Positions 2,572 to 58,919 of a stretch of DNA of 64,000 nt are shown here, one piece after another. The translations under genes were made by a program, and so were the position numbers. Source of the DNA: Calditrichota bacterium (GTDB lineage Bacteria > Electryoneota > B3-LCP); the NCBI GenBank assembly GCA_020051775.1, contig JAGVQJ010000069.1:15235-79234 (forward strand), read 5' to 3'. The notes beneath the pieces are model-generated. The model ran no database searches, had not been told where the DNA came from, and saw nothing but the letters and a program-made list of their open reading frames with translations. The stretch's first letter is position 1; each line of letters begins with the position of its first letter.

Positions 2572-2988
2572 CTATGTGCTGCCTGATACCAGGCTTTCCG
2601 GCTGCACCATGATTTTGACTCCCGTTTTGGCGCCGGCGTCGGAAAGGCGTTGCCTGAGCACGTTCAAATCGCTGGTTGCTCCTGCTGTATCAACCAAAGC
2701 CAGCATAACCTGAAATCCACCCATGATCCTTTCCACCCGATCTGCTATTCGGCAACCGGTGTCCTGCAAGCCTTGCGACAGTGCTTCGGCATTCGCGCGG
2801 TTATCCGGCGACAGACAGATTATCAAGAGCCGTTCCGGGCGCGATCCCGGTTTTGGCGCGTCGGTCTCCATCTGTGCCACCACCCGGCTGACGATCTGGT
2901 GCAACCGCTCGTAGGTGGCGGCTTCACCCAGCTCTTCCTGGGCGGTTTTCGCGATGGCGCGAATCTGATCTTCGGTGAGTTTGGTCAT
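2572..2988 (-). CDS. Hypothetical protein (138 aa), co-transcribed downstream of the BMC-T shell gene
   Basis: Complete ORF overlapping the stop of the BMC-T gene by 4 nt. No motif I can assign; it is not a recognisable BMC, EutN or GTPase fold by eye. Confidence 0.5.
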   Translation of the reverse strand: MTKLTEDQIRAIAKTAQEELGEAATYERLHQIVSRVVAQMETDAPKPGSRPERLLIICLSPDNRANAEALSQGLQDTGCRIADRVERIMGGFQVMLALVDTAGATSDLNVLRQRLSDAGAKTGVKIMVQPESLVSGST

Positions 2989-3554
2989 GATAGTATATTA
3001 AATATCTCTTCTCTCGGCTGCGGAATCACCACTTTGCGCACCAGCAGCCCCTGATCCAACGCGGCCTGAGCGCCCGCATCCACAGCGTTGCGTACGGCAG
3101 CCACGTCGCCGGTCAGTGTGACGAAGGCTTTGCCTCCGATGCCAATTCCCATCCGGATTTCCATCAAGGCAATCTGCGCCGTCTTGCAGGCGCGGTCGGC
3201 AGCGAGCACGGCAGAAGCCGCCGAAAACGTCTCGATGACGCCGATGGCGTTGACCGTCGGATTCCAGGAGGAGGCGATCAGGGCGGGGTAGACCTGCGGG
3301 TGGACGTTGGGGATGACGAAGTCGTCCACGCAGGCGATGGCGCCCACGCTTTTGCCCTCTTCCACGGAAGCGCGCACGGCGGCGGTGTCGCCGCGCACCA
3401 GAGCGATGTACTTGCCCGAGCAGATGGTCTTGGCGATAACCAGTTCCACCTGCGAGATCTTCAGCATGGCGTCCGCCGCTTCAATCCCCACGGCGATGGA
3501 GTTGAACTCGACCATGCCTAACGCGGACGAATGAGTAGTAGTGTTATTTGGCAT
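2985..3554 (-). CDS. Tandem BMC-domain (BMC-T) shell protein, PduT-like
   Basis: 189 aa with two BMC domains: ALGMVEFNSIAVGIEAADAMLKISQVELV...RGDTAAVRASVEEG and AIGVIETFSAASAVLAADRACKTAQIALMEIRMGIGIGGKAFVTLTGDVAAVRNAVDAG. Length and the GIGGK/GDV-AV motifs match my recollection of Salmonella PduT. The PduT cluster-binding Cys in GIGGKC is Ala here (GIGGKAF). Confidence 0.75.
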   Translation of the reverse strand: MPNNTTTHSSALGMVEFNSIAVGIEAADAMLKISQVELVIAKTICSGKYIALVRGDTAAVRASVEEGKSVGAIACVDDFVIPNVHPQVYPALIASSWNPTVNAIGVIETFSAASAVLAADRACKTAQIALMEIRMGIGIGGKAFVTLTGDVAAVRNAVDAGAQAALDQGLLVRKVVIPQPREEIFNILS

Positions 3555-3606
3555 TGGGGTGATGGGTACGTTACAGTTTGTTATTAAAGAATTTATGAAT
3601 TAGGAG

Positions 3607-4026
3607 TTATGAGTTATGAAAATTCGATGATTCCTTTTGTAATTTTTCCAGCCGTTTAATTCTATCTCTAAAATTAATGAGCATGGCGATAACCACACTC
3701 TGCAGAATTATTATCAGGAATACAAGTCGCTCCGTTTTAAGCATCTCAAATATTGAATAAATAGGTGGCCCGATAACTAGTAACAGAATAGCTATTCCGA
3801 TTATTGCTAAAATCAATAAAAATAATTTCTGGATCAGCCATTCCCATGCTTTAACTATTATTCCCGTCTTCGCTCCATTATCATAAAATGGCATTTTGGT
3901 AGGATCTAATAAAAAATCCTTGTCTTTAAAGAGTTTCTTATGAAGGGATGCCATGGATTCCTCCTGGACCGTCATTGCGTACTGAGTAATTTCTGCAGGG
4001 TCAGCGATATGCAACTCAACAGTCAA
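3607..4026 (-). CDS. Hypothetical small membrane protein (2 predicted TM helices), low-GC cassette gene 2
   Basis: 139 aa. Hydrophobic stretches LFLLILAIIGIAILLLVIGPPIY and LVFLIIILQSVVIAMLI. Markedly AT-rich compared with flanking genes. Confidence 0.5.
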   Translation of the reverse strand: MTVELHIADPAEITQYAMTVQEESMASLHKKLFKDKDFLLDPTKMPFYDNGAKTGIIVKAWEWLIQKLFLLILAIIGIAILLLVIGPPIYSIFEMLKTERLVFLIIILQSVVIAMLINFRDRIKRLEKLQKESSNFHNS

Positions 4027-4088
4027 TTTTGTCCTATTTAGGATTACGCTTTGCCAGGCAAACCTAACTGATTTATCACCTACAGCAT

Positions 4089-4799
4089 TTATTGAATTGG
4101 ATCTTTAAATACCTTGTAAATATTTTTGATAATCCAAAATACTTGAAGTGCCTCATTCGCTATATTTTCAAAATACCTTGTTTCAACACAATATCCAAGC
4201 ATATGTTTCTGCTTTTTTTCATCAAACATCCACCATTGTCCAGTCCATGCAGAAGAAGGATGAATAAAAATAGAACCATCCCTAAATATGCTCGAATATT
4301 TCTCACTCATATTGTACTTATATTCTTGTTGAGAATATTGAGTAAGAAGGCGGCAGAGTGTGCAAAGATTTAAATCTTTATTATTGTACTTGAATGTTTT
4401 ATACCAAGGATGAGAGCTAATTCTTCCCTCAGACTTTGAATGCATGAAGAATCTTTCTGATCGCACTTCCCTTTTATCTTGTTCGGACAGGATAAAAAGT
4501 AACGAAGCTAGATTGTCGAATATTACTCTAAGATGTATGTAAGCCGAGGACAGATTTACTAACTTTAAGCTCACATGAAACATAATGCTATGATTATAAT
4601 GCCATAAAAGATGACTCAGCAATGCACCAGAAAAATAGTTACTCGGCTCCAATCCATTTTGAAAATGCTCCTGGATATGATTTAATATTTCTTGGTGTTC
4701 ATCAATTTCACTCTCAAGTTTTCCAATAAGCTGGTTGAATCTTTCGTTGTCCGTAAATAAATAAGGCACTCTAGTTTTTATATCATTCCAATAATCCAT
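4089..4799 (-). CDS. Hypothetical cytoplasmic protein (236 aa), low-GC cassette gene 1
   Basis: Complete ORF, AT-rich, no signal peptide. Only a weak R-x6-H stretch (RSERFFMH) reminiscent of HEPN motifs; no family assigned. Confidence 0.45.
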   Translation of the reverse strand: MDYWNDIKTRVPYLFTDNERFNQLIGKLESEIDEHQEILNHIQEHFQNGLEPSNYFSGALLSHLLWHYNHSIMFHVSLKLVNLSSAYIHLRVIFDNLASLLFILSEQDKREVRSERFFMHSKSEGRISSHPWYKTFKYNNKDLNLCTLCRLLTQYSQQEYKYNMSEKYSSIFRDGSIFIHPSSAWTGQWWMFDEKKQKHMLGYCVETRYFENIANEALQVFWIIKNIYKVFKDPIQ

Positions 4800-4878
4800 T
4801 ACTTTTCTCCATTTTCGGTGATGATGGTCTGTGTACCCCTGGCTTGCTCACATACCGGGCATATCCTATCCCATTTTT

Positions 4879-4985
4879 GTCCGGGAATGAATTCCCGGAC
4901 TACCTTCCTTCGATCCACTAAAGCGGATGTTTTACGTTCACTTAAGTGGACTGAAGCTTTTTAGCCCGGAAATTCATTTCCGGGG
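4879..4985. repeat. Pair of mutually inverted 18-bp hairpins (ccgggaatgaattcccgg / ccggaaattcatttccgg) flanking ~65 bp, plus a central near-palindrome gttcacttaagtggac
   Basis: Read directly. The second hairpin is the reverse complement of the first with a compensatory G-C to A-T change at the same stem position. Confidence 0.5.
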
Positions 4986-5027
4986 GACGGCTCTAACATA
5001 TTCCGCGACCGCGGATGCACTTCAACT

Positions 5028-5243
5028 TCACGTGTCGCACTCGATGCCCGCCTCCTTCGATTGCAGCGGCGGGCAGGGGTGATCGGCATACGAACAGAAC
5101 ACGCAGCAGTCGCCGGGTTTGGGGGTCAGGACGGCGCCGCAACCCTCGCAGGTGTAGGTGTGCAGGCAGTAATTAACCGGCATCTCCATCTCGACTTGAT
5201 GGCTGCAAACCGGGCAGGTCAAAGTAGCACGAGTGTATATCAT
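5028..5243 (-). CDS. GDCCVxC-domain zinc-ribbon protein
   Basis: 71 aa. CPVC...CEGCG...GDCCVFC cysteine pattern. Start overlaps the stop of the upstream formyltransferase gene (translational coupling). Confidence 0.6.
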   Translation of the reverse strand: MIYTRATLTCPVCSHQVEMEMPVNYCLHTYTCEGCGAVLTPKPGDCCVFCSYADHPCPPLQSKEAGIECDT

Positions 5244-20658: not shown

Positions 20659-21051
20659 GGGTTGTTGCTCCTAATGGCCGGTGGCGATCCTAAGTATAAT
20701 TTAGCCTTTATCCGTTGTTAATGTTAAACATCCCCCTTATGATCCCCCAAATTAAGATGATTGCAAACCAAATGCAAGAGATTTTTATGAAATTTTATAA
20801 TAGTGATCCAAACTTATTGTTTTTGATGGTTGAAGGATGAATTTTACCGGGGGTTAAAGACAATCTCATGATACGACTGGATTTTTGGGTTCTTAGTAAA
20901 AAGTTCGGACTCTTTGACCTGCTGATTTTATTACTAGGGTTTTTCATGGCTGGGATTTGTGAATAGATTTTGTAATAGATTACACTTGAAATTTGTTCGA
21001 ATTTTTCATATATTTTGTTTGGCCCATACGCAAACATTTGAGGGAGGCATA

Positions 21052-23397
21052 ATGTCCGCTTTTTATTCCTACGATCCCAGGTCACCGGATAGCTACACTT
21101 CGCAGTGGTCCCGCTATCTGCAGCAAAAGTCCGTTATCCAAGATCTTGAACACACCATGCAAGATCAAACGGATCAAATCCGGGATTCTTTGGGTATTGT
21201 AGCAAGTACTCTGCAAGATGGATTCTATCAAATTACTGAATGCCTGAATCAATTGAACTGGGGTTTGACCATGGTGATAGAAAGGCAGCGCATAACTAAC
21301 ATCCTAGCGGAAAATATCGCGCTGCTCCTCCGCATTCCCGATGCCCAAAAAAAGCGACAATATTACCTTGAACAGGGCCTTAAGTTTTTAAAAAACGCCA
21401 CGCTCGATCCGGATCTGTATCAGGACGCACTGGAAAAACTGATGGAGGCCGAAAAGTTGGAAAAGACGGATTATTTTGTTTTGCACCGGATCGGCCTGAT
21501 TTATTTATATAGTTCCGAGCATCTTGACGTATCCAAAGCTGAGGAGTATTTCAGGCGAGCAGCCAAGTACTCCGTTGTTGAGTCAGATCCCCAGGCAGTT
21601 CGAATTGCGAATATTTTGATAGGTGATATTCGAGGACAATTTAGAAACCAGACAACTCCTGCAGAAATCATTAAACTGATGGCGGCGGAATCCTTCTTAC
21701 ATACCGGAATTGCTTGTTACGTTCAGGGGAAATTCGAAGAAGCGGCGGAATTAGCCGCGAAAGCTTTCTTGCTCGCGCCGGAAATGCTGATTGCGGGGTT
21801 TGCGCGAGCCAAATCGCTAGCAGCCGGGGGACACGATAAGGAGTCAGCAACAGTCGTACGGGATCTAGTTACGCGTGACAGGAACTACTCTATTGCGGCT
21901 GCCCTTGACGATGATCTCAGGTCTTGCCAGGCTGTACGGGAAATGTTACACCAGTTACGCGACGAGGCGCTCAACCGGATATCGCAGATCCTGAAGGATT
22001 ATAAAGCCAAAATGATTCGAGGAAGCCTAGCCACGCCGGTTTTAGCGGAAATTGAGCAGCTAATTAAAAGGGGAACGTATTTGGATTCGATGAAGGCTAT
22101 GGATGAAATGGCCAAAAGAAGGATTTGGCGAATAAATGTAATACCACCGAGATTTGTGGAAAAATTAACAATGAAGGATTTTGGAGGTGATGTGCTGGAT
22201 GTTGCTTTCAGTCCGGATGGAACACTTCTGGCCATTAGTGATATTCATGGAAAGGTATATATAAAGGGCCTAGACCAAAATCAGCTAAGTATGAATCGTG
22301 ATCTTGGTTTTGAAAACAGAATAATGAGCCTAAAGACTCCTTCACATAATAAGATCCTCGCAGGATTATCTGAAAACAATCATATTATCATATGGGACTT
22401 GAAGACAATGAGTGAAATTGCGACATTATCAGGAAATAGAAGCCATATCAGTTGTTTTGATATTAGTAGGGACGGTAACATTGTAATTGCCGGTTACAAT
22501 GACGGATCAATGATACTCTGGGATATAAATAAGAAAGATCAAGTATTTAATTCTAAGGGTCACAACAACTCAGTTTCAACTTTAGAACTCAATTGGGATT
22601 GCACTTTACTCGCATCCTGTGAAGCTGGTGAGGTACACCTTCGGCGGGTAGAAACTATGGAACCAATAAATAATTTTTGCTTAGAGTCAGGGAAACATTT
22701 TCACACTGTTACCTTTAATCCTGATGGATCAAAATTAGCTTGCGGTTCTGTTAACGAAATCGCCATATTGGATACTGTCACCGGCAAAACATTATCGCGC
22801 ATCACTGCTAACAAAGCTCCGCATTATTTATCATGCTTTAGTCCGGATGGTGAATATCTGGTTTGTACGCAAGGTGATTGGTCGGATCCAGAAATTACTA
22901 TTATTAATGTAATTAATGGGAAATCTGTTGCCAAACTAAAACGCTTTGAAGGAAAAGTTAAGTGTGTTAAATTTAGCCCAAATGGATTACTCCTAGCCTG
23001 TGTTACCGATAAAAGAATTGTACTTTGGATTAGACAATCAGGTGATGTTTCAGCTAAGCCAATCGAAATTGAATGTTCACATAGTGTAGAAAAATTTATT
23101 GATTATGAAAAGGAAAGCCTAGCGGGATTAGAATTACATAAAAAAACCAAGGTGGCAGCCAGGCAAAAGGAAATTGAACGCAAAAAAGGTATGGAGGAAC
23201 AGCGCTCATTGCTGGAAAAAGAGAAGAAAATAAAGAATCTACTGGAACTTGCGTCACAGGCGGAGAAATACCAAAACAAAAAATGGTTTGGTAAAAACTT
23301 TTCAAAAACACTGGAATTGTATTTAGAAGCGGCTAAACTGGGCTCTGATGAAGCTAAAGTAGCAGTGAACCGTTTGGGATCAAAGATGAAGAAATAA
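21052..23397 (+). CDS. Large TPR-like helical + WD40 beta-propeller + coiled-coil/Sel1-like protein, low-GC (probably horizontally acquired)
   Basis: Track ORF starts at 20959. ATG at 21052 has a GGAGG RBS 7 nt upstream. WD40-type repeats (DVAFSPDGTLLAISDIHGKVY, IIWDLKT, MILWDINKK). C-terminal KEIERKKGMEEQRSLLEKEKK coiled coil and Sel1-like ...LELYLEAAKLGSDEAKVAVNRLG. No P-loop. Confidence 0.7.
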   Translation: MSAFYSYDPRSPDSYTSQWSRYLQQKSVIQDLEHTMQDQTDQIRDSLGIVASTLQDGFYQITECLNQLNWGLTMVIERQRITNILAENIALLLRIPDAQKKRQYYLEQGLKFLKNATLDPDLYQDALEKLMEAEKLEKTDYFVLHRIGLIYLYSSEHLDVSKAEEYFRRAAKYSVVESDPQAVRIANILIGDIRGQFRNQTTPAEIIKLMAAESFLHTGIACYVQGKFEEAAELAAKAFLLAPEMLIAGFARAKSLAAGGHDKESATVVRDLVTRDRNYSIAAALDDDLRSCQAVREMLHQLRDEALNRISQILKDYKAKMIRGSLATPVLAEIEQLIKRGTYLDSMKAMDEMAKRRIWRINVIPPRFVEKLTMKDFGGDVLDVAFSPDGTLLAISDIHGKVYIKGLDQNQLSMNRDLGFENRIMSLKTPSHNKILAGLSENNHIIIWDLKTMSEIATLSGNRSHISCFDISRDGNIVIAGYNDGSMILWDINKKDQVFNSKGHNNSVSTLELNWDCTLLASCEAGEVHLRRVETMEPINNFCLESGKHFHTVTFNPDGSKLACGSVNEIAILDTVTGKTLSRITANKAPHYLSCFSPDGEYLVCTQGDWSDPEITIINVINGKSVAKLKRFEGKVKCVKFSPNGLLLACVTDKRIVLWIRQSGDVSAKPIEIECSHSVEKFIDYEKESLAGLELHKKTKVAARQKEIERKKGMEEQRSLLEKEKKIKNLLELASQAEKYQNKKWFGKNFSKTLELYLEAAKLGSDEAKVAVNRLGSKMKK

Positions 23398-26437: not shown

Positions 26438-27892
26438 TTGCGTAGAGAAACGCTAAAGACCTGGTTCTCGCACTGCCTGCTTTTGATCGCCCTACCCCTA
26501 TGCGTCTGGGGCGAGACGCACGTTAAAGGTTTCGTTTCCGGAACTTGGGATATTCTGGGAACCCCTTACATCGTGGATAGCTCCCTGGTCATCGAAGAAA
26601 ACGACACTTTATTTATCGAGCCAGGTGTAACTATCCTCTTCCAGGGGCCTTTTTTCATTAAAATCAATGGCTGTCTCCGAGCTCAAGGAACGGTCTCTGA
26701 TTCCATCAGAATTTGGGATGAAAATAAAGCCAACTGGACCGGACTCCATTTTATGCCCTCCTCGCACGACTGCATTATAAATTATGTGTCTATTAAGTAC
26801 CCGGTTTGGGGTATTTATGCCTATTATTGTAGTGAAACGTCACCTTTAAATATATTACACTCAAATATTTACGCACAATCGGTTGCTGTCTGGGGTGCAT
26901 TCTCCAAGTTTAATCTTTTAAATTCCACAGTGATATGCGATTCTTTGGATGCTAAAGCTATCTATTTAAATCATTCCGATGCTCATATACAGGAATGCTA
27001 TATCCAGGCCAGCCGGTATCAAGACCAGGGAGTGGCTATGGGTATCTATAAGGTTAATTCAAAGCCGGAAATTTGGCAAAATACCATACGGGTTGACGCC
27101 TCGCAGAGAGCCCACGGAATTTGGTCGCAGACCAGCCCTAAAGCAGATATATCCTTCAACTTGATTCACATCACCTCATCCTATTATGCCAATGGAGGTT
27201 TCTTCCTAGCCAGCAGCCCCGATTTCGTGAACAATACGGTCATTATGGAATCCGAATTTGCCTTTTGCGACGGGCTGCACCTTTTGCAAAATGCCAGTCC
27301 TATCGTAGATAACAATATATTTGCCGGCGATGGTCCGAATTCTTTTGGTATCTATGTGGCGGAAGGCTGTGAACCGGATATTTTATATAGTGATTTTTTC
27401 AACCTGACGCCAACCTCCGCCGGTTACAGTTTGGGAACCGGTTGCATTGATGAAGACCCCATTTTTGAAGGACCCGAACAGGGTAATTTTACCTTGGAAC
27501 GACATTCGCCTTGCATTAATGCCGGCAATCCCGCCCGCGTTGAGGATCCTGACTCCACGGTCTCAGATATGGGCTGTTTTTACTTCAATACACAGGTCGG
27601 CGTAGAACCCGAGCCGTTCGTCCCACCGGCCTCATTCACCTTGATTCAAGCCTTTCCAAATCCTTTCAACGCTCAAAGTGTCATTCGCTTGACGCTCCCC
27701 ACCACCCAGACCGGATCGCTGGTTATTTATGACCAACAAGGTCGCATCGTTGAAACCATCAAGACAGGGATCTTCTTCACCGGGGAAAGTCGCTTTAGTT
27801 GGGACGCTTCTAGATTCGGCTCTGGTATCTACTGGGCAACATTGAGAACCGATCGTGGAACTCAAGTTCTCCAACTTACACTCATCAAATAA
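26438..27892 (+). CDS. Secreted protein with T9SS C-terminal sorting domain
   Basis: 484 aa. N-terminal signal peptide. C-terminal ~80 aa FPNPFNAQSVIRLTL...IYDQQGRIV...GIYWATLRTD matches the T9SS CTD (Por secretion tail). Confidence 0.65.
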   Translation: MRRETLKTWFSHCLLLIALPLCVWGETHVKGFVSGTWDILGTPYIVDSSLVIEENDTLFIEPGVTILFQGPFFIKINGCLRAQGTVSDSIRIWDENKANWTGLHFMPSSHDCIINYVSIKYPVWGIYAYYCSETSPLNILHSNIYAQSVAVWGAFSKFNLLNSTVICDSLDAKAIYLNHSDAHIQECYIQASRYQDQGVAMGIYKVNSKPEIWQNTIRVDASQRAHGIWSQTSPKADISFNLIHITSSYYANGGFFLASSPDFVNNTVIMESEFAFCDGLHLLQNASPIVDNNIFAGDGPNSFGIYVAEGCEPDILYSDFFNLTPTSAGYSLGTGCIDEDPIFEGPEQGNFTLERHSPCINAGNPARVEDPDSTVSDMGCFYFNTQVGVEPEPFVPPASFTLIQAFPNPFNAQSVIRLTLPTTQTGSLVIYDQQGRIVETIKTGIFFTGESRFSWDASRFGSGIYWATLRTDRGTQVLQLTLIK

Positions 27893-57521: not shown

Positions 57522-57715
57522 AAGTCGTCTACGGGGCGGGGTGAAAGACCCCACCGGCGGTGAAAGCCCGCGAGTCTGCTACTTCCTGGTCACCCTTTAT
57601 AATGGGCGATGGGGGATCAATACAATCATCATTTTCCCCTTTTGTAAAGGATCTGGCAGACAGAGCCGGTGTAATTCCGGCGCCGACGGTTATAGTCCGG
57701 ATGAGAGCAGACGGC
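57522..57715 (+). promoter_or_regulatory. FMN riboswitch (RFN element) aptamer
   Basis: CGGGGCGGGGTGAAAGACCCCACCGGCGGTGAAAGCCCGCGAG ... GCCGGTGTAATTCCGGCGCCGACGGTTATAGTCCGGATGAGAGCAGACGG match conserved RFN blocks. Sits upstream of ribD. Confidence 0.8.
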
Positions 57716-57751
57716 CATGGGACAGTTACGTTCCCACGATGGATAATTACG

Positions 57752-57791: not shown

Positions 57792-58919
57792 GTGACGGAA
57801 GACGTTCGCTTTATGAAAATGGCGCTCCGATTGGCGCGACGCGGCTTGGGAACCACCAGCCCCAATCCTCGTGTCGGAGCGGTTTTAATGCGCGGTGGCA
57901 AGATCCTTTCGCGCGGTTTTCATCGCGCCTTCGGCGAGCCTCATGCCGAAGTGGATGCCTTGAGCAAGCTGCCTCTCCGGGCTGCCGAAGGAGCCACGCT
58001 GTACGTCAACCTGGAACCTTGCTGTCATCATGGTAAGACCCCGCCCTGCACCGAGGCGATCACCAGAGCGGGTGTTCAACGTGTTGTGTACGGCCTCGCC
58101 GATCCCAATCCTCAGGTCAATAAACAGGGATTGGATCAGTTGACCAAAGCGGGGGTGAAGGTTCACGGGCCTGTTTTGGAATCGGACTGTCGAGAGATCA
58201 ATCGCGGTTATTTGAAACATCGTCAGACCGGGCTTCCCTGGGTGACCCTTAAATGGGCTCAGAGTCTGGACGGGCGCATCGCAACGTTCACCGGAGATTC
58301 ACGCTGGATTAGCGGTCCGGAGAGCTTGAAATTAGCCCACGTCTTGCGCGCCGAACACGACGCTGTGCTGGCGGGGATCAACACCGTTTTAACCGATGAT
58401 CCGCAACTGACCGTGCGTCATATCCGCGGCCATCACCCCACTCGCGTGATCCTGGATTCGGCCTTACGTTTCCCGACCAAAGCGGCCATGCTGACTGATG
58501 GGAAAGCCCGCATCCTGATAGCCACAAGTCAAAGTGCCCCCGAAGATAAGATTCGAGCGCTGAAGATTCTCGGCGCGGAAGTATTGACTGTTCCCGGCGA
58601 AAGAGGACAACTGGATTTGAACGCTTTGTTGAAGGAACTGGGCCAACGTGGGATTTTGTATCTTCTGGTGGAGGGTGGCTCAAAAGTAATCGCTTCTTTC
58701 ATTCAGCAGGGGCTTTTCGACGAAATCGTGTGTATCATAGCGCCAAGTTTAATCGGCGCTGACGGCATTGCCAGCACCGGGGCTTTTGCCGTCGCGCGAA
58801 TGGATAATGTGGTGAAATTGCAAACCGTCCAGAGGAAAGCCTTTGGTCGAGATATAGTAGTCTGGCTAAGACCTCAATTGAGAACTACCAACGACCAACG
58901 ACTATGTTCACCGGCCTGA
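57792..58919 (+). CDS. ribD: Bifunctional riboflavin biosynthesis protein RibD (deaminase/reductase)
   Basis: 375 aa. HAEVDAL and PCCHHGKTPPC deaminase zinc motifs; C-terminal RibD reductase domain. GTG start at 57792 or ATG at 57813. Confidence 0.9.
   Translation: MTEDVRFMKMALRLARRGLGTTSPNPRVGAVLMRGGKILSRGFHRAFGEPHAEVDALSKLPLRAAEGATLYVNLEPCCHHGKTPPCTEAITRAGVQRVVYGLADPNPQVNKQGLDQLTKAGVKVHGPVLESDCREINRGYLKHRQTGLPWVTLKWAQSLDGRIATFTGDSRWISGPESLKLAHVLRAEHDAVLAGINTVLTDDPQLTVRHIRGHHPTRVILDSALRFPTKAAMLTDGKARILIATSQSAPEDKIRALKILGAEVLTVPGERGQLDLNALLKELGQRGILYLLVEGGSKVIASFIQQGLFDEIVCIIAPSLIGADGIASTGAFAVARMDNVVKLQTVQRKAFGRDIVVWLRPQLRTTNDQRLCSPA

What the first reader, a model, noticed from the sequence alone, without database searches (positions are those of the whole stretch)
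3560..4830. Low-GC two-gene cassette (soluble 236-aa protein + small 2-TM protein) inserted between housekeeping genes
Composition drops sharply to roughly 35% GC compared with flanks. Both genes lack recognisable homologues by eye, and the downstream junction (4800-5030) is full of hairpins. The architecture of an unknown cytoplasmic protein followed by a small membrane protein is common in abortive-infection and other phage-defence pairs and in toxin/immunity modules. A weak HEPN-like R-x6-H stretch is present in the larger protein.
Basis: inference. Interest (0 to 1): 0.5.

Follow-up and report, generated by a model that had tools for sequence, protein, structure and literature searches.

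The report
Foreign low-GC DUF5677 plus membrane-protein cassette
A 1.25-kb piece of foreign, AT-rich DNA carrying a very rare member of the uncharacterised DUF5677 protein family and an orphan two-helix membrane protein sits in a gene slot where related bacteria carry an abortive-infection gene, so it may be a defence or conflict module, but its function is not shown.

Summary
Genes 4089-4799(-) (236 aa) and 3607-3954(-) (115 aa, two hydrophobic helices) have GC 0.33 and GC3 0.31-0.34. The other 48 genes of the window average GC 0.52 (z about -5.8).

- **Large protein:** it is not an orphan. It belongs to a very rare branch of Pfam DUF5677, with only five relatives (40-45% identity) among billions of proteins. 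Four of the five were scored individually and pass the Pfam threshold.
- **HEPN idea:** it fails. R113 is not conserved and the profile comparison gives 0.3% probability.
- **Small protein:** it has no relative anywhere, and the pairing is unique to this contig.
- **Hairpin junction:** it is a 103-nt composite palindrome. A relative has a homologous copy at a different site, next to a Y1 transposase and a repeat array.
- **The slot:** four close relatives have four different genes directly upstream of the conserved microcompartment shell gene. One is a low-GC AbiU/AIPR gene with HicB.
- **Counter-evidence:** in another lineage the DUF5677 gene is a stable, native-composition resident.

Verdict: a horizontally acquired accessory cassette in a variable slot. 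A conflict role is plausible but unproven. Interest is modest.

The parts
4089..4799 (-). 236-aa cytoplasmic all-alpha protein, a divergent member of a rare branch of the DUF5677 (PF18928) family. GGAG lies 8 bases upstream of the ATG.
   Evidence: ORF. GC 0.329 and GC3 0.308. Pfam DUF5677 score is 17.2 bits, below the 27.1 threshold. Homologues P0013-P0017 are 40-45% identical over the full length. P0013-P0016 score 29-34 bits on DUF5677; P0017 matches it too, but its own score was not listed. The AF2 model is a helical bundle, pLDDT 65, pTM 0.66. No hydrophobic segment.
3607..3954 (-). 115-aa orphan membrane protein with a two-helix hairpin and basic N- and C-terminal tails. The longest possible ORF starts at TTG 4026 (139 aa).
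   Evidence: ORF. GGAGG five bases before ATG 3954. NCBI aa and JGI aa. ORF length exceeds chance, p about 0.002. Two hydrophobic windows with KD above 2.3. No homologue in 5.8 billion proteins. No family hit beyond compositional ones.
4881..4983 (.). 103-nt composite palindrome made of four short hairpins (CCGGGAATGAATTCCCGG ... ATCCACTAAAGCGGAT ... TCACTTAAGTGGA ... CCCGGAAATTCATTTCCGG). It looks like a REP/MITE-type dispersed element and sits about 80 nt beyond the distal end of the low-GC segment.
   Evidence: Inverted repeat I1. Fold z = -4.96. Only miRNA-precursor-like chance hits in Rfam, on both strands. 81% identical copy in relative L004 4575-4679, at a different site between the BMC and ACT genes. 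Stem positions differ by paired changes between the two copies. L004 has a Y1 transposase and an array of hairpin repeats nearby. No second copy in the window.
3593..3622 (-). Native sequence upstream of the BMC gene, retained in the window (TTTTCATAACTCATAACTCCTAATTCATAA). It marks the BMC-side edge of the insertion at about 3623-3630. The last codons and the stop of the small ORF lie inside it.
   Evidence: 16-nt exact and about 31/37 overall match to the sequence just upstream of the BMC gene in L004. The TTTT(C/G)ATAA core is conserved in L015 and L001.
2985..3554 (-). Conserved flank: tandem-BMC (BMC-T type) microcompartment shell protein. Its upstream side is the variable slot.
   Evidence: Pfam BMC E 8e-45, two domains. 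89-94% identical proteins in L001 and L004. L015 carries a cluster member at 90% or more, 88% nucleotide identity. Each relative has a different upstream neighbour.
5028..5243 (-). Distal flank: 71-aa GDCCVxC-domain protein of native composition, followed by a short GC hairpin at 5002-5017.
   Evidence: NCBIfam NF041374 E 1e-24. GC3 0.76. Hairpin in the fold.

Best explanation
A segment of about 1.25 kb (roughly 3625-4815) was acquired horizontally from an unknown low-GC donor. It inserted directly upstream of a conserved microcompartment shell gene, in a slot that turns over between close relatives.

It carries two co-oriented genes. The first encodes a cytoplasmic all-alpha protein of a very rare branch of the uncharacterised DUF5677 family. 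It has a conserved histidine-rich face (H63, H67, H70 on one helix, plus H120 and H180) that suggests metal or ligand binding. The second encodes an orphan 115-aa two-helix membrane protein.

The most likely role is a small accessory conflict module of the phage-defence / abortive-infection or toxin-partner type. In this reading the DUF5677 protein is the sensing or enzymatic part, and the membrane hairpin is the effector or partner acting on the membrane.

Shown: foreign composition, absence from relatives, family assignment, slot variability, and an Abi gene in the same slot in relatives. Inferred: any defence activity, the functional coupling of the two genes, and the division of roles.
For: - Composition: z about -5.8 for both genes, GC3 0.31-0.34 against 0.59-0.77 in neighbours.
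- Absence from relatives whose BMC, ACT and ABC genes are syntenic.
- Four different upstream neighbours of the BMC gene in four kinds of relatives. One is a low-GC (0.39) AIPR gene that matches PADLOC AbiU (E 5e-28), with HicB and a hicA remnant. Another is a Y1 transposase with a hairpin-repeat array.
- Family: homologues pass the DUF5677 gathering score.
- Literature: DUF5677 is statistically enriched in contigs with defence-linked serine recombinases in Bacillota (PMC12632615). It is among the variable-genome Pfam markers in Salmonella, listed alongside EcoRII, DndE, PemK and HEPN_RES_NTD1 (PMC12440251).
- In other metagenomes, two unrelated MNT-HEPN/HepT toxin-antitoxin pairs sit directly downstream of DUF5677 homologues.
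- One locus (L005) has a low-GC, 46%-identical allele in the same slot while its neighbours are 69% identical.
- Both genes share the same foreign composition, which fits co-acquisition.
Against: - No PADLOC, PHROG or NCBIfam model matches either protein.
- The pairing occurs only on this contig, because the small protein has no homologue.
- No relative was found in phage, plasmid or IMG/VR collections, nor in 185,579 species genomes.
- In one FCB-group lineage the DUF5677 gene sits between rhomboid and a 274-aa membrane protein. It has native GC3 (0.67-0.73) and diverges at the same rate as its neighbours (75-86% against 74-87%). That looks like a resident cellular gene.
- The one DUF5677 ORF tested experimentally was not among the five ORFs that protected E. 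faecalis from six phages (PMC12632615).
- Structure searches give only generic helical bundles.
- The two genes are 62-134 nt apart and show no translational coupling.
Confidence: 0.4

Rival explanations
1. The DUF5677 protein has an ordinary cellular role, for example linked to membrane or envelope proteins. The window simply holds a xenologous copy acquired by transfer. It is not a defence or toxin module, and the adjacent small membrane protein is an incidental or unrelated passenger.
For: In L006, L007, L008, L010 and L012 the gene lies next to a 274-aa membrane protein, and L009 holds the start of a homologue of it. Rhomboid is seen upstream wherever the contig reaches that far (L006, L008, L009, L010). 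The locus is followed by DHH and the nuo operon. GC3 is native and divergence equals that of the neighbours. Every homologue locus long enough to show it has a membrane protein downstream, sometimes after an inserted TA pair. The single DUF5677 defence test was negative. No PADLOC hits.
Against: The subfamily is extremely rare: six clusters in 5.8 billion proteins and none in GTDB representative genomes. That is unusual for a cellular function. In this genome and in L005 the gene is strongly foreign in composition. It is absent from this organism's close relatives, where the slot holds an Abi gene or a transposase. The membrane partners in the two lineages are not homologous.
Confidence: 0.3
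2. The segment is a decaying remnant of a mobile element with no current function. The 236-aa gene is a passenger, and the small ORF is not a real gene or is a junction artefact.
For: The last codons and the stop of the small ORF lie in native BMC-upstream sequence, so its 3' end was created by the junction. The small protein has no homologue at all. No integrase, transposase or target duplication occurs at the edges. No convincing promoter or terminator was found. A dispersed palindromic element lies about 80 nt beyond one edge.
Against: The 236-aa ORF is intact, full length relative to homologues, and keeps all 58 columns that are invariant across the six aligned sequences. The small ORF is much longer than chance (p about 0.002), has a good GGAGG and two clean hydrophobic helices.
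Confidence: 0.15
3. It is a two-gene toxin-antitoxin or addiction module. The small membrane hairpin is a membrane-damaging toxin, and the DUF5677 protein is its antidote or regulator. It would act to stabilise the island rather than defend against phage.
For: Small hydrophobic hairpin proteins are a common toxin type (established knowledge). The slot in relative L001 holds HicB and a hicA remnant. TA pairs cluster next to DUF5677 homologues.
Against: No TA family hit for either protein. At 236 aa with conserved His residues, the large protein is unlike typical antitoxins. The genes are not overlapping or tightly coupled. The pairing is not conserved.
Confidence: 0.1
4. The large protein is a HEPN-type RNase.
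Confidence: 0.02

Closest known systems
Pfam PF18928 (DUF5677), an uncharacterised family
   Same: Close relatives of the 236-aa protein pass the family's gathering score over residues of about 75-190. The window protein gives a sub-threshold hit to the same model region. It is all-alpha and soluble. The family is reported as enriched on defence-associated mobile contigs (PMC12632615).
   Different: The window protein itself scores only 17.2 bits against a threshold of 27.1. It belongs to a tiny, divergent branch (six clusters) found only in metagenomes. No function is known for any member, so the assignment does not explain the mechanism.
AbiU / AIPR (PF10592) single-gene abortive-infection loci, as found in the same slot of relatives L001/L002
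   Same: Same genomic position, directly upstream of the BMC-T gene. Same orientation and the same low-GC foreign signature.
   Different: No sequence relationship. AIPR is a 555-aa single protein, whereas this is a 236-aa DUF5677 protein plus a membrane hairpin.
Defence systems with small 2-TM membrane effectors (for example SLATT or S_2TMBeta-type effectors in CBASS, Pycsar and retron systems; established knowledge)
   Same: The architecture is similar: a cytoplasmic protein followed by a small two-helix membrane protein with basic tails.
   Different: No Pfam or PADLOC hit to any such effector family at E up to 1. There is no cyclase, reverse transcriptase or other signal-generating partner. 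The pairing is seen only once.
REP/BIME-type extragenic palindromes mobilised by RAYT (Y1) transposases; this applies to the hairpin junction only
   Same: An imperfect composite palindrome in an intergenic position. A homologous copy sits at a different locus in a relative, which also carries a Y1 transposase and an array of hairpin repeats.
   Different: Only one copy in this 64-kb window and no Y1 transposase in the window. Copy number in the genome is unknown.

Membership tests
DUF5677 (PF18928) | The protein scores at or above the Pfam gathering threshold (27.1 bits). | tested here: not met
   17.2 bits, E 0.0055, residues 82-124 against profile positions 26-66.
DUF5677 (PF18928) | Full-length homology to proteins that do pass the threshold (membership by transitivity). 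| tested here: met
   P0013 E 1e-55 (45% identity over 1-231) and P0014 E 5e-51. P0013-P0016 score 29.2-33.8 bits on PF18928. All six members hit the model.
HEPN superfamily | A conserved R-x4-6-H catalytic motif. | tested here: not met
   R113 is Leu in P0013 and P0014, and R116 is Ile or Leu. The only invariant Arg is R91, with no nearby His.
HEPN superfamily | Profile or sequence similarity to HEPN families. | tested here: not met
   hhalign of A2 against a HEPN (PF05168) alignment gives probability 0.3%. No HEPN-clan family at E up to 0.1 in any member.
HEPN superfamily | A four-helix up-down bundle fold. | tested here: inconclusive
Known anti-phage defence systems (PADLOC-DB v2) | A match to a model of a known or candidate defence protein. 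| tested here: not met
   No hits for either window protein. One chance-level DrmC hit (E 0.033) in one of six homologues.
Two-gene abortive-infection or defence pair (cytoplasmic protein + small membrane protein) | The two genes co-occur across genomes. | tested here: not met
   The small protein has no homologue. DUF5677 homologues are followed by MNT-HEPN pairs or by a non-homologous 274-aa membrane protein.
Two-gene abortive-infection or defence pair (cytoplasmic protein + small membrane protein) | Location in a defence island or variable hotspot. | tested here: met
   The same slot holds a low-GC AIPR gene in L001/L002 (the L001 copy matches PADLOC AbiU, E 5e-28). L001 also has HicB there. 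L004 has a Y1 transposase, and L015 has an unrelated gene.
Two-gene abortive-infection or defence pair (cytoplasmic protein + small membrane protein) | Protection against phage, or infection-triggered cell death. | not testable with these tools
   This needs an experiment. The only published test of a DUF5677 ORF was not among the protective ones (PMC12632615).
Toxin-antitoxin module | Recognisable toxin or antitoxin domains and tight gene coupling. | tested here: not met
   No TA family hits. The genes are separated by 62-134 nt.
REP/MITE-like dispersed palindromic element (4881-4983) | An imperfect palindrome, intergenic, with homologous copies at different loci. | tested here: met
   50-nt arms, 72% complementary. 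81% identical copy at a different site in L004.
REP/MITE-like dispersed palindromic element (4881-4983) | Many copies per genome and a cognate RAYT transposase. | tested here: inconclusive
   A single copy in the 64-kb window and no Y1 transposase in the window. L004 has a Y1_Tnp gene about 1.4 kb from its copy. The rest of the genome was not available.

The most novel reading that the evidence does not exclude
The rare DUF5677 branch, together with a membrane-hairpin partner, is a new kind of abortive-infection or defence module. A His-cluster helical sensor or enzyme would trigger a small membrane effector. The family's slot behaviour would reflect an arms race: an in-situ replacement by a 46%-identical low-GC allele in L005, and repeated capture of MNT-HEPN pairs next to it.
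Probability: 0.2. Interest if true: 0.55.

Novelty: new member of a known kind. Interest (0 to 1): 0.3.

Why it matters
If the cassette is active, it would give a first functional handle on DUF5677. That Pfam family has no known role, is enriched on defence-linked mobile DNA, and failed its only published test.

The locus also documents a small turnover hotspot directly upstream of a conserved microcompartment shell gene. In different relatives this slot holds an Abi gene, a toxin-antitoxin remnant, a Y1 transposase, or this cassette.

As it stands, the finding is an ordinary example of a foreign accessory insertion of unknown function, seen on one contig only.

Tried and rejected
- **Large protein, family libraries:** Pfam, NCBIfam, PHROGs and PADLOC gave only a sub-threshold DUF5677 hit. 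PADLOC and NCBIfam on all six family members gave nothing.
- **Small protein, family libraries:** only weak compositional hits, to phrog_2203 'membrane protein' (E 0.008) and CD3337/EF1877 (15 bits against a cut-off of 120). I treated these as hydrophobic-segment noise.
- **HEPN hypothesis:** rejected.
- **Searches for relatives:** none in GTDB genomes, IMG/VR, phages or plasmids.
- **Source contig:** not indexed for context look-up.
- **L014:** fetched through a 32-aa cluster representative, it turned out to be unrelated to the window.
- **Insertion edges:** no target-site duplication or direct repeat of 8 nt or more.
- **Transcription signals:** no convincing promoter or terminator. Rfam gives only chance miRNA-like hits on the palindrome.
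- **Small protein against other loci:** no similarity to the 274-aa membrane protein or to anything in the related loci.

Full report
**Observation**

The minus strand of 3560-4830 holds two ORFs. One is 4089-4799 (236 aa). The other is 3607-4026 (139 aa from a TTG start). The small gene more likely starts at ATG 3954, giving 115 aa. A GGAGG lies five bases upstream of that ATG, and it is the start NCBI called.

Both genes have GC 0.33. The other 48 long ORFs of the window have mean 0.520, sd 0.033 and minimum 0.414, so z is about -5.8. This is the lowest-GC 1.2-kb stretch of the 64 kb. Third-position GC is 0.31-0.34, against 0.59-0.77 in the neighbours.

The small ORF is longer than chance allows in this AT-rich DNA: 0.2% of 5000 shuffles reach 115 aa. 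It has two clear hydrophobic helices, at about residues 40-66 and 75-95, with basic tails. The large protein has no hydrophobic segment.

The junction 4800-5030 folds with z = -4.96. This is due to a 103-nt composite palindrome at 4881-4983.

**The large protein**

It is not homologue-less, but it is close to it. A word-indexed search of 5.8 billion proteins found only the protein itself. A full HMMER scan of 1.84 billion cluster representatives found two relatives, P0013 (45% identity) and P0014 (40%). A profile search added three more.

All six sequences hit Pfam DUF5677. P0013-P0016 were scored individually and pass the gathering score (29-34 bits against 27.1) over residues of about 75-190. 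The window protein alone scores 17.2 bits. It is thus a divergent member of a very rare DUF5677 branch.

Nothing related was found in 185,579 species genomes, IMG/VR, phage records or plasmid records. PADLOC, NCBIfam and PHROGs give nothing.

Invariant residues include H63, W66, H67, N69 and H70, which lie on one helical face. Others are R91, N96, H120, C149, H180-P181 and E216. I read this as a possible metal or ligand site. That is inference only, because the six sequences represent about three independent lineages.

**The HEPN hint**

R113-x6-H120 exists, but R113 is Leu in both P0013 and P0014, and R116 is Ile or Leu. A profile-profile comparison with HEPN proteins gives probability 0.3%. 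I reject the HEPN reading.

**The small protein**

It has no relative in any search. Its family hits are weak and compositional.

Its last codons and stop lie inside a motif (TTTTCATAACTCATAA...) that is also found just upstream of the BMC gene in relative L004. The core of that motif is conserved in L015 and L001. The BMC-side edge of the insertion is therefore at about 3623-3630, and the 3' end of the small ORF was set by the junction.

**The hairpin junction**

The palindrome 4881-4983 has an 81%-identical copy in relative L004, but at another site, between the BMC and ACT genes. Paired changes between the two copies keep the inner hairpins intact.

L004 also carries a Y1 (IS200/RAYT-type) transposase gene, followed by an 800-nt array of short hairpin repeats. 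The junction is therefore best read as a REP/MITE-like dispersed element. It is not a regulatory structure specific to the cassette. The window has only one copy and no Y1 transposase.

**The slot in close relatives**

Contigs encoding a BMC protein in the same 90%-identity cluster keep the BMC-ACT-ABC synteny. Each has something different directly upstream of the BMC gene:

- L001 has HicB, a hicA remnant and a low-GC (0.39) AIPR gene that matches the PADLOC AbiU model at E 5e-28. L002 carries the same AIPR gene.
- L004 has the Y1 transposase and its repeat array.
- L015 has an NAD-binding protein and another palindrome.
- The window has this cassette.

This is shown. The cassette is thus absent from relatives and sits in a turnover hotspot that elsewhere holds an abortive-infection gene and a TA remnant. 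This is the strongest support for a conflict role.

**Contexts of the homologues**

In one FCB-group lineage (L006, L007, L008, L010, L011, L012) the DUF5677 gene lies between rhomboid and a 274-aa multi-pass membrane protein, followed by DHH and the nuo operon. There it has native GC3 (0.67-0.73). It diverges at the same rate as its neighbours: 75-86%, against 76-81% for the membrane protein, 74-84% for rhomboid and 86-87% for DHH. That is the behaviour of a resident cellular gene, and it argues against a fast-turnover defence gene.

Other features of the same lineage point the other way:

- Two unrelated MNT-HEPN/HepT toxin-antitoxin pairs are inserted right after the DUF5677 gene in L010 and L009.
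- L005 has a low-GC (0.32) allele only 46% identical to the L010 copy.
- In L005 the following MNT and HEPN genes are 69% identical to those of L010, and the start of the 274-aa gene is retained. This looks like an in-situ xenologous replacement.

The window gene and the L005 gene are the only two low-GC members, and they are 44-45% identical to each other.

**Literature**

DUF5677 appears in two papers in the library.

- One reports the domain as significantly enriched in contigs with defence-associated serine recombinases in Bacillota. That study tested one DUF5677 ORF in E. faecalis against six phages. It was not among the five ORFs that protected (PMC12632615).
- The other lists DUF5677 among variable-genome Pfam markers in Salmonella, next to EcoRII, DndE, PemK and HEPN_RES_NTD1 (PMC12440251).

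**Conclusion**

Three things are shown. The cassette is a foreign, recently acquired two-gene insertion. It lies in a variable slot. Its large gene belongs to DUF5677.

The function is inferred only. I favour a small conflict module, with the DUF5677 protein as sensor or enzyme and the membrane hairpin as effector or partner, at about 0.4. The rivals are:

- an ordinary cellular role for DUF5677 with an incidental neighbour (0.3);
- a non-functional remnant (0.15);
- a membrane-toxin TA pair (0.1);
- a HEPN RNase (0.02).

The pairing is seen once, the family is known but uncharacterised, and no mechanism can be read from sequence or model. Novelty is 'new member of a known kind' and interest is modest.

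Noticed in passing
window 4881-4983; L004 4575-4679 and 3186-3999: A 103-nt four-hairpin palindrome is shared at 81% identity with a relative, but at a different locus. That relative has a Y1 (RAYT-like) transposase followed by an 800-nt tandem array of short GC hairpins. These genomes seem rich in REP-type elements.
   Followed up: partly
L001 3982-6563 (also L002 65-1732): In close relatives the slot upstream of the BMC-T gene holds a low-GC AIPR gene. The L001 copy matches PADLOC AbiU at E 5e-28, and L001 also has HicB there. By eye, the DNA after hicB encodes a HicA-like peptide (..VLEKHGWKLKRIHGSHNIYVKSGRKARYQFP..) preceded by a stop, so it is probably a hicA pseudogene.
   Followed up: partly
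L005 1-2037 against L010 9983-11716: L005 carries a low-GC (0.32) DUF5677 allele only 46% identical to the L010 copy, while the adjacent MNT and HEPN genes are 69% identical. This looks like an in-situ xenologous replacement of one gene.
   Followed up: partly
L009 1240-2056; L010 10728-11502: Two unrelated nucleotidyltransferase/HEPN-type TA pairs (Polbeta+HepT and MNT+HEPN) are inserted at the same intergenic spot, between the DUF5677 gene and the 274-aa membrane-protein gene, in sister genomes.
   Followed up: partly
window 20959-23397 (+): The second lowest-GC gene of the window (0.41; GC3 0.39) encodes an 812-aa protein with a C-terminal WD40 propeller and an unassigned N-terminal region of about 400 aa. 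It has no PADLOC hit and may be another foreign gene.
   Followed up: partly
window 5028-5243 (-): A 71-aa GDCCVxC-domain protein (NF041374, E 1e-24), here with Cys-Cys rather than selenocysteine. It overlaps by one base the stop of a 396-aa gene that has a borderline formyltransferase domain. That gene and the next one (372 aa, no family hit) are themselves nearly unique in the databases.
   Followed up: no
window 57523-57716 (+): An FMN riboswitch (Rfam RF00050, 103 bits) lies upstream of the gene starting at 57792.
   Followed up: no
window 26438-27892 (+): A beta-helix protein with a Por_Secre_tail (T9SS sorting) domain. This suggests the host belongs to the FCB group, as do the hosts of the DUF5677 homologues (L006 has a C25 peptidase with the same tail).
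   Followed up: no
L004 3900-3960; L015 1660-1745: A second shared palindrome (GTAGGTTGGGTTAGCCCGC...GCTAACCCAACCTAC) lies about 50-110 nt upstream of the BMC gene in two relatives. It is missing in the window, where the cassette sits.
   Followed up: no
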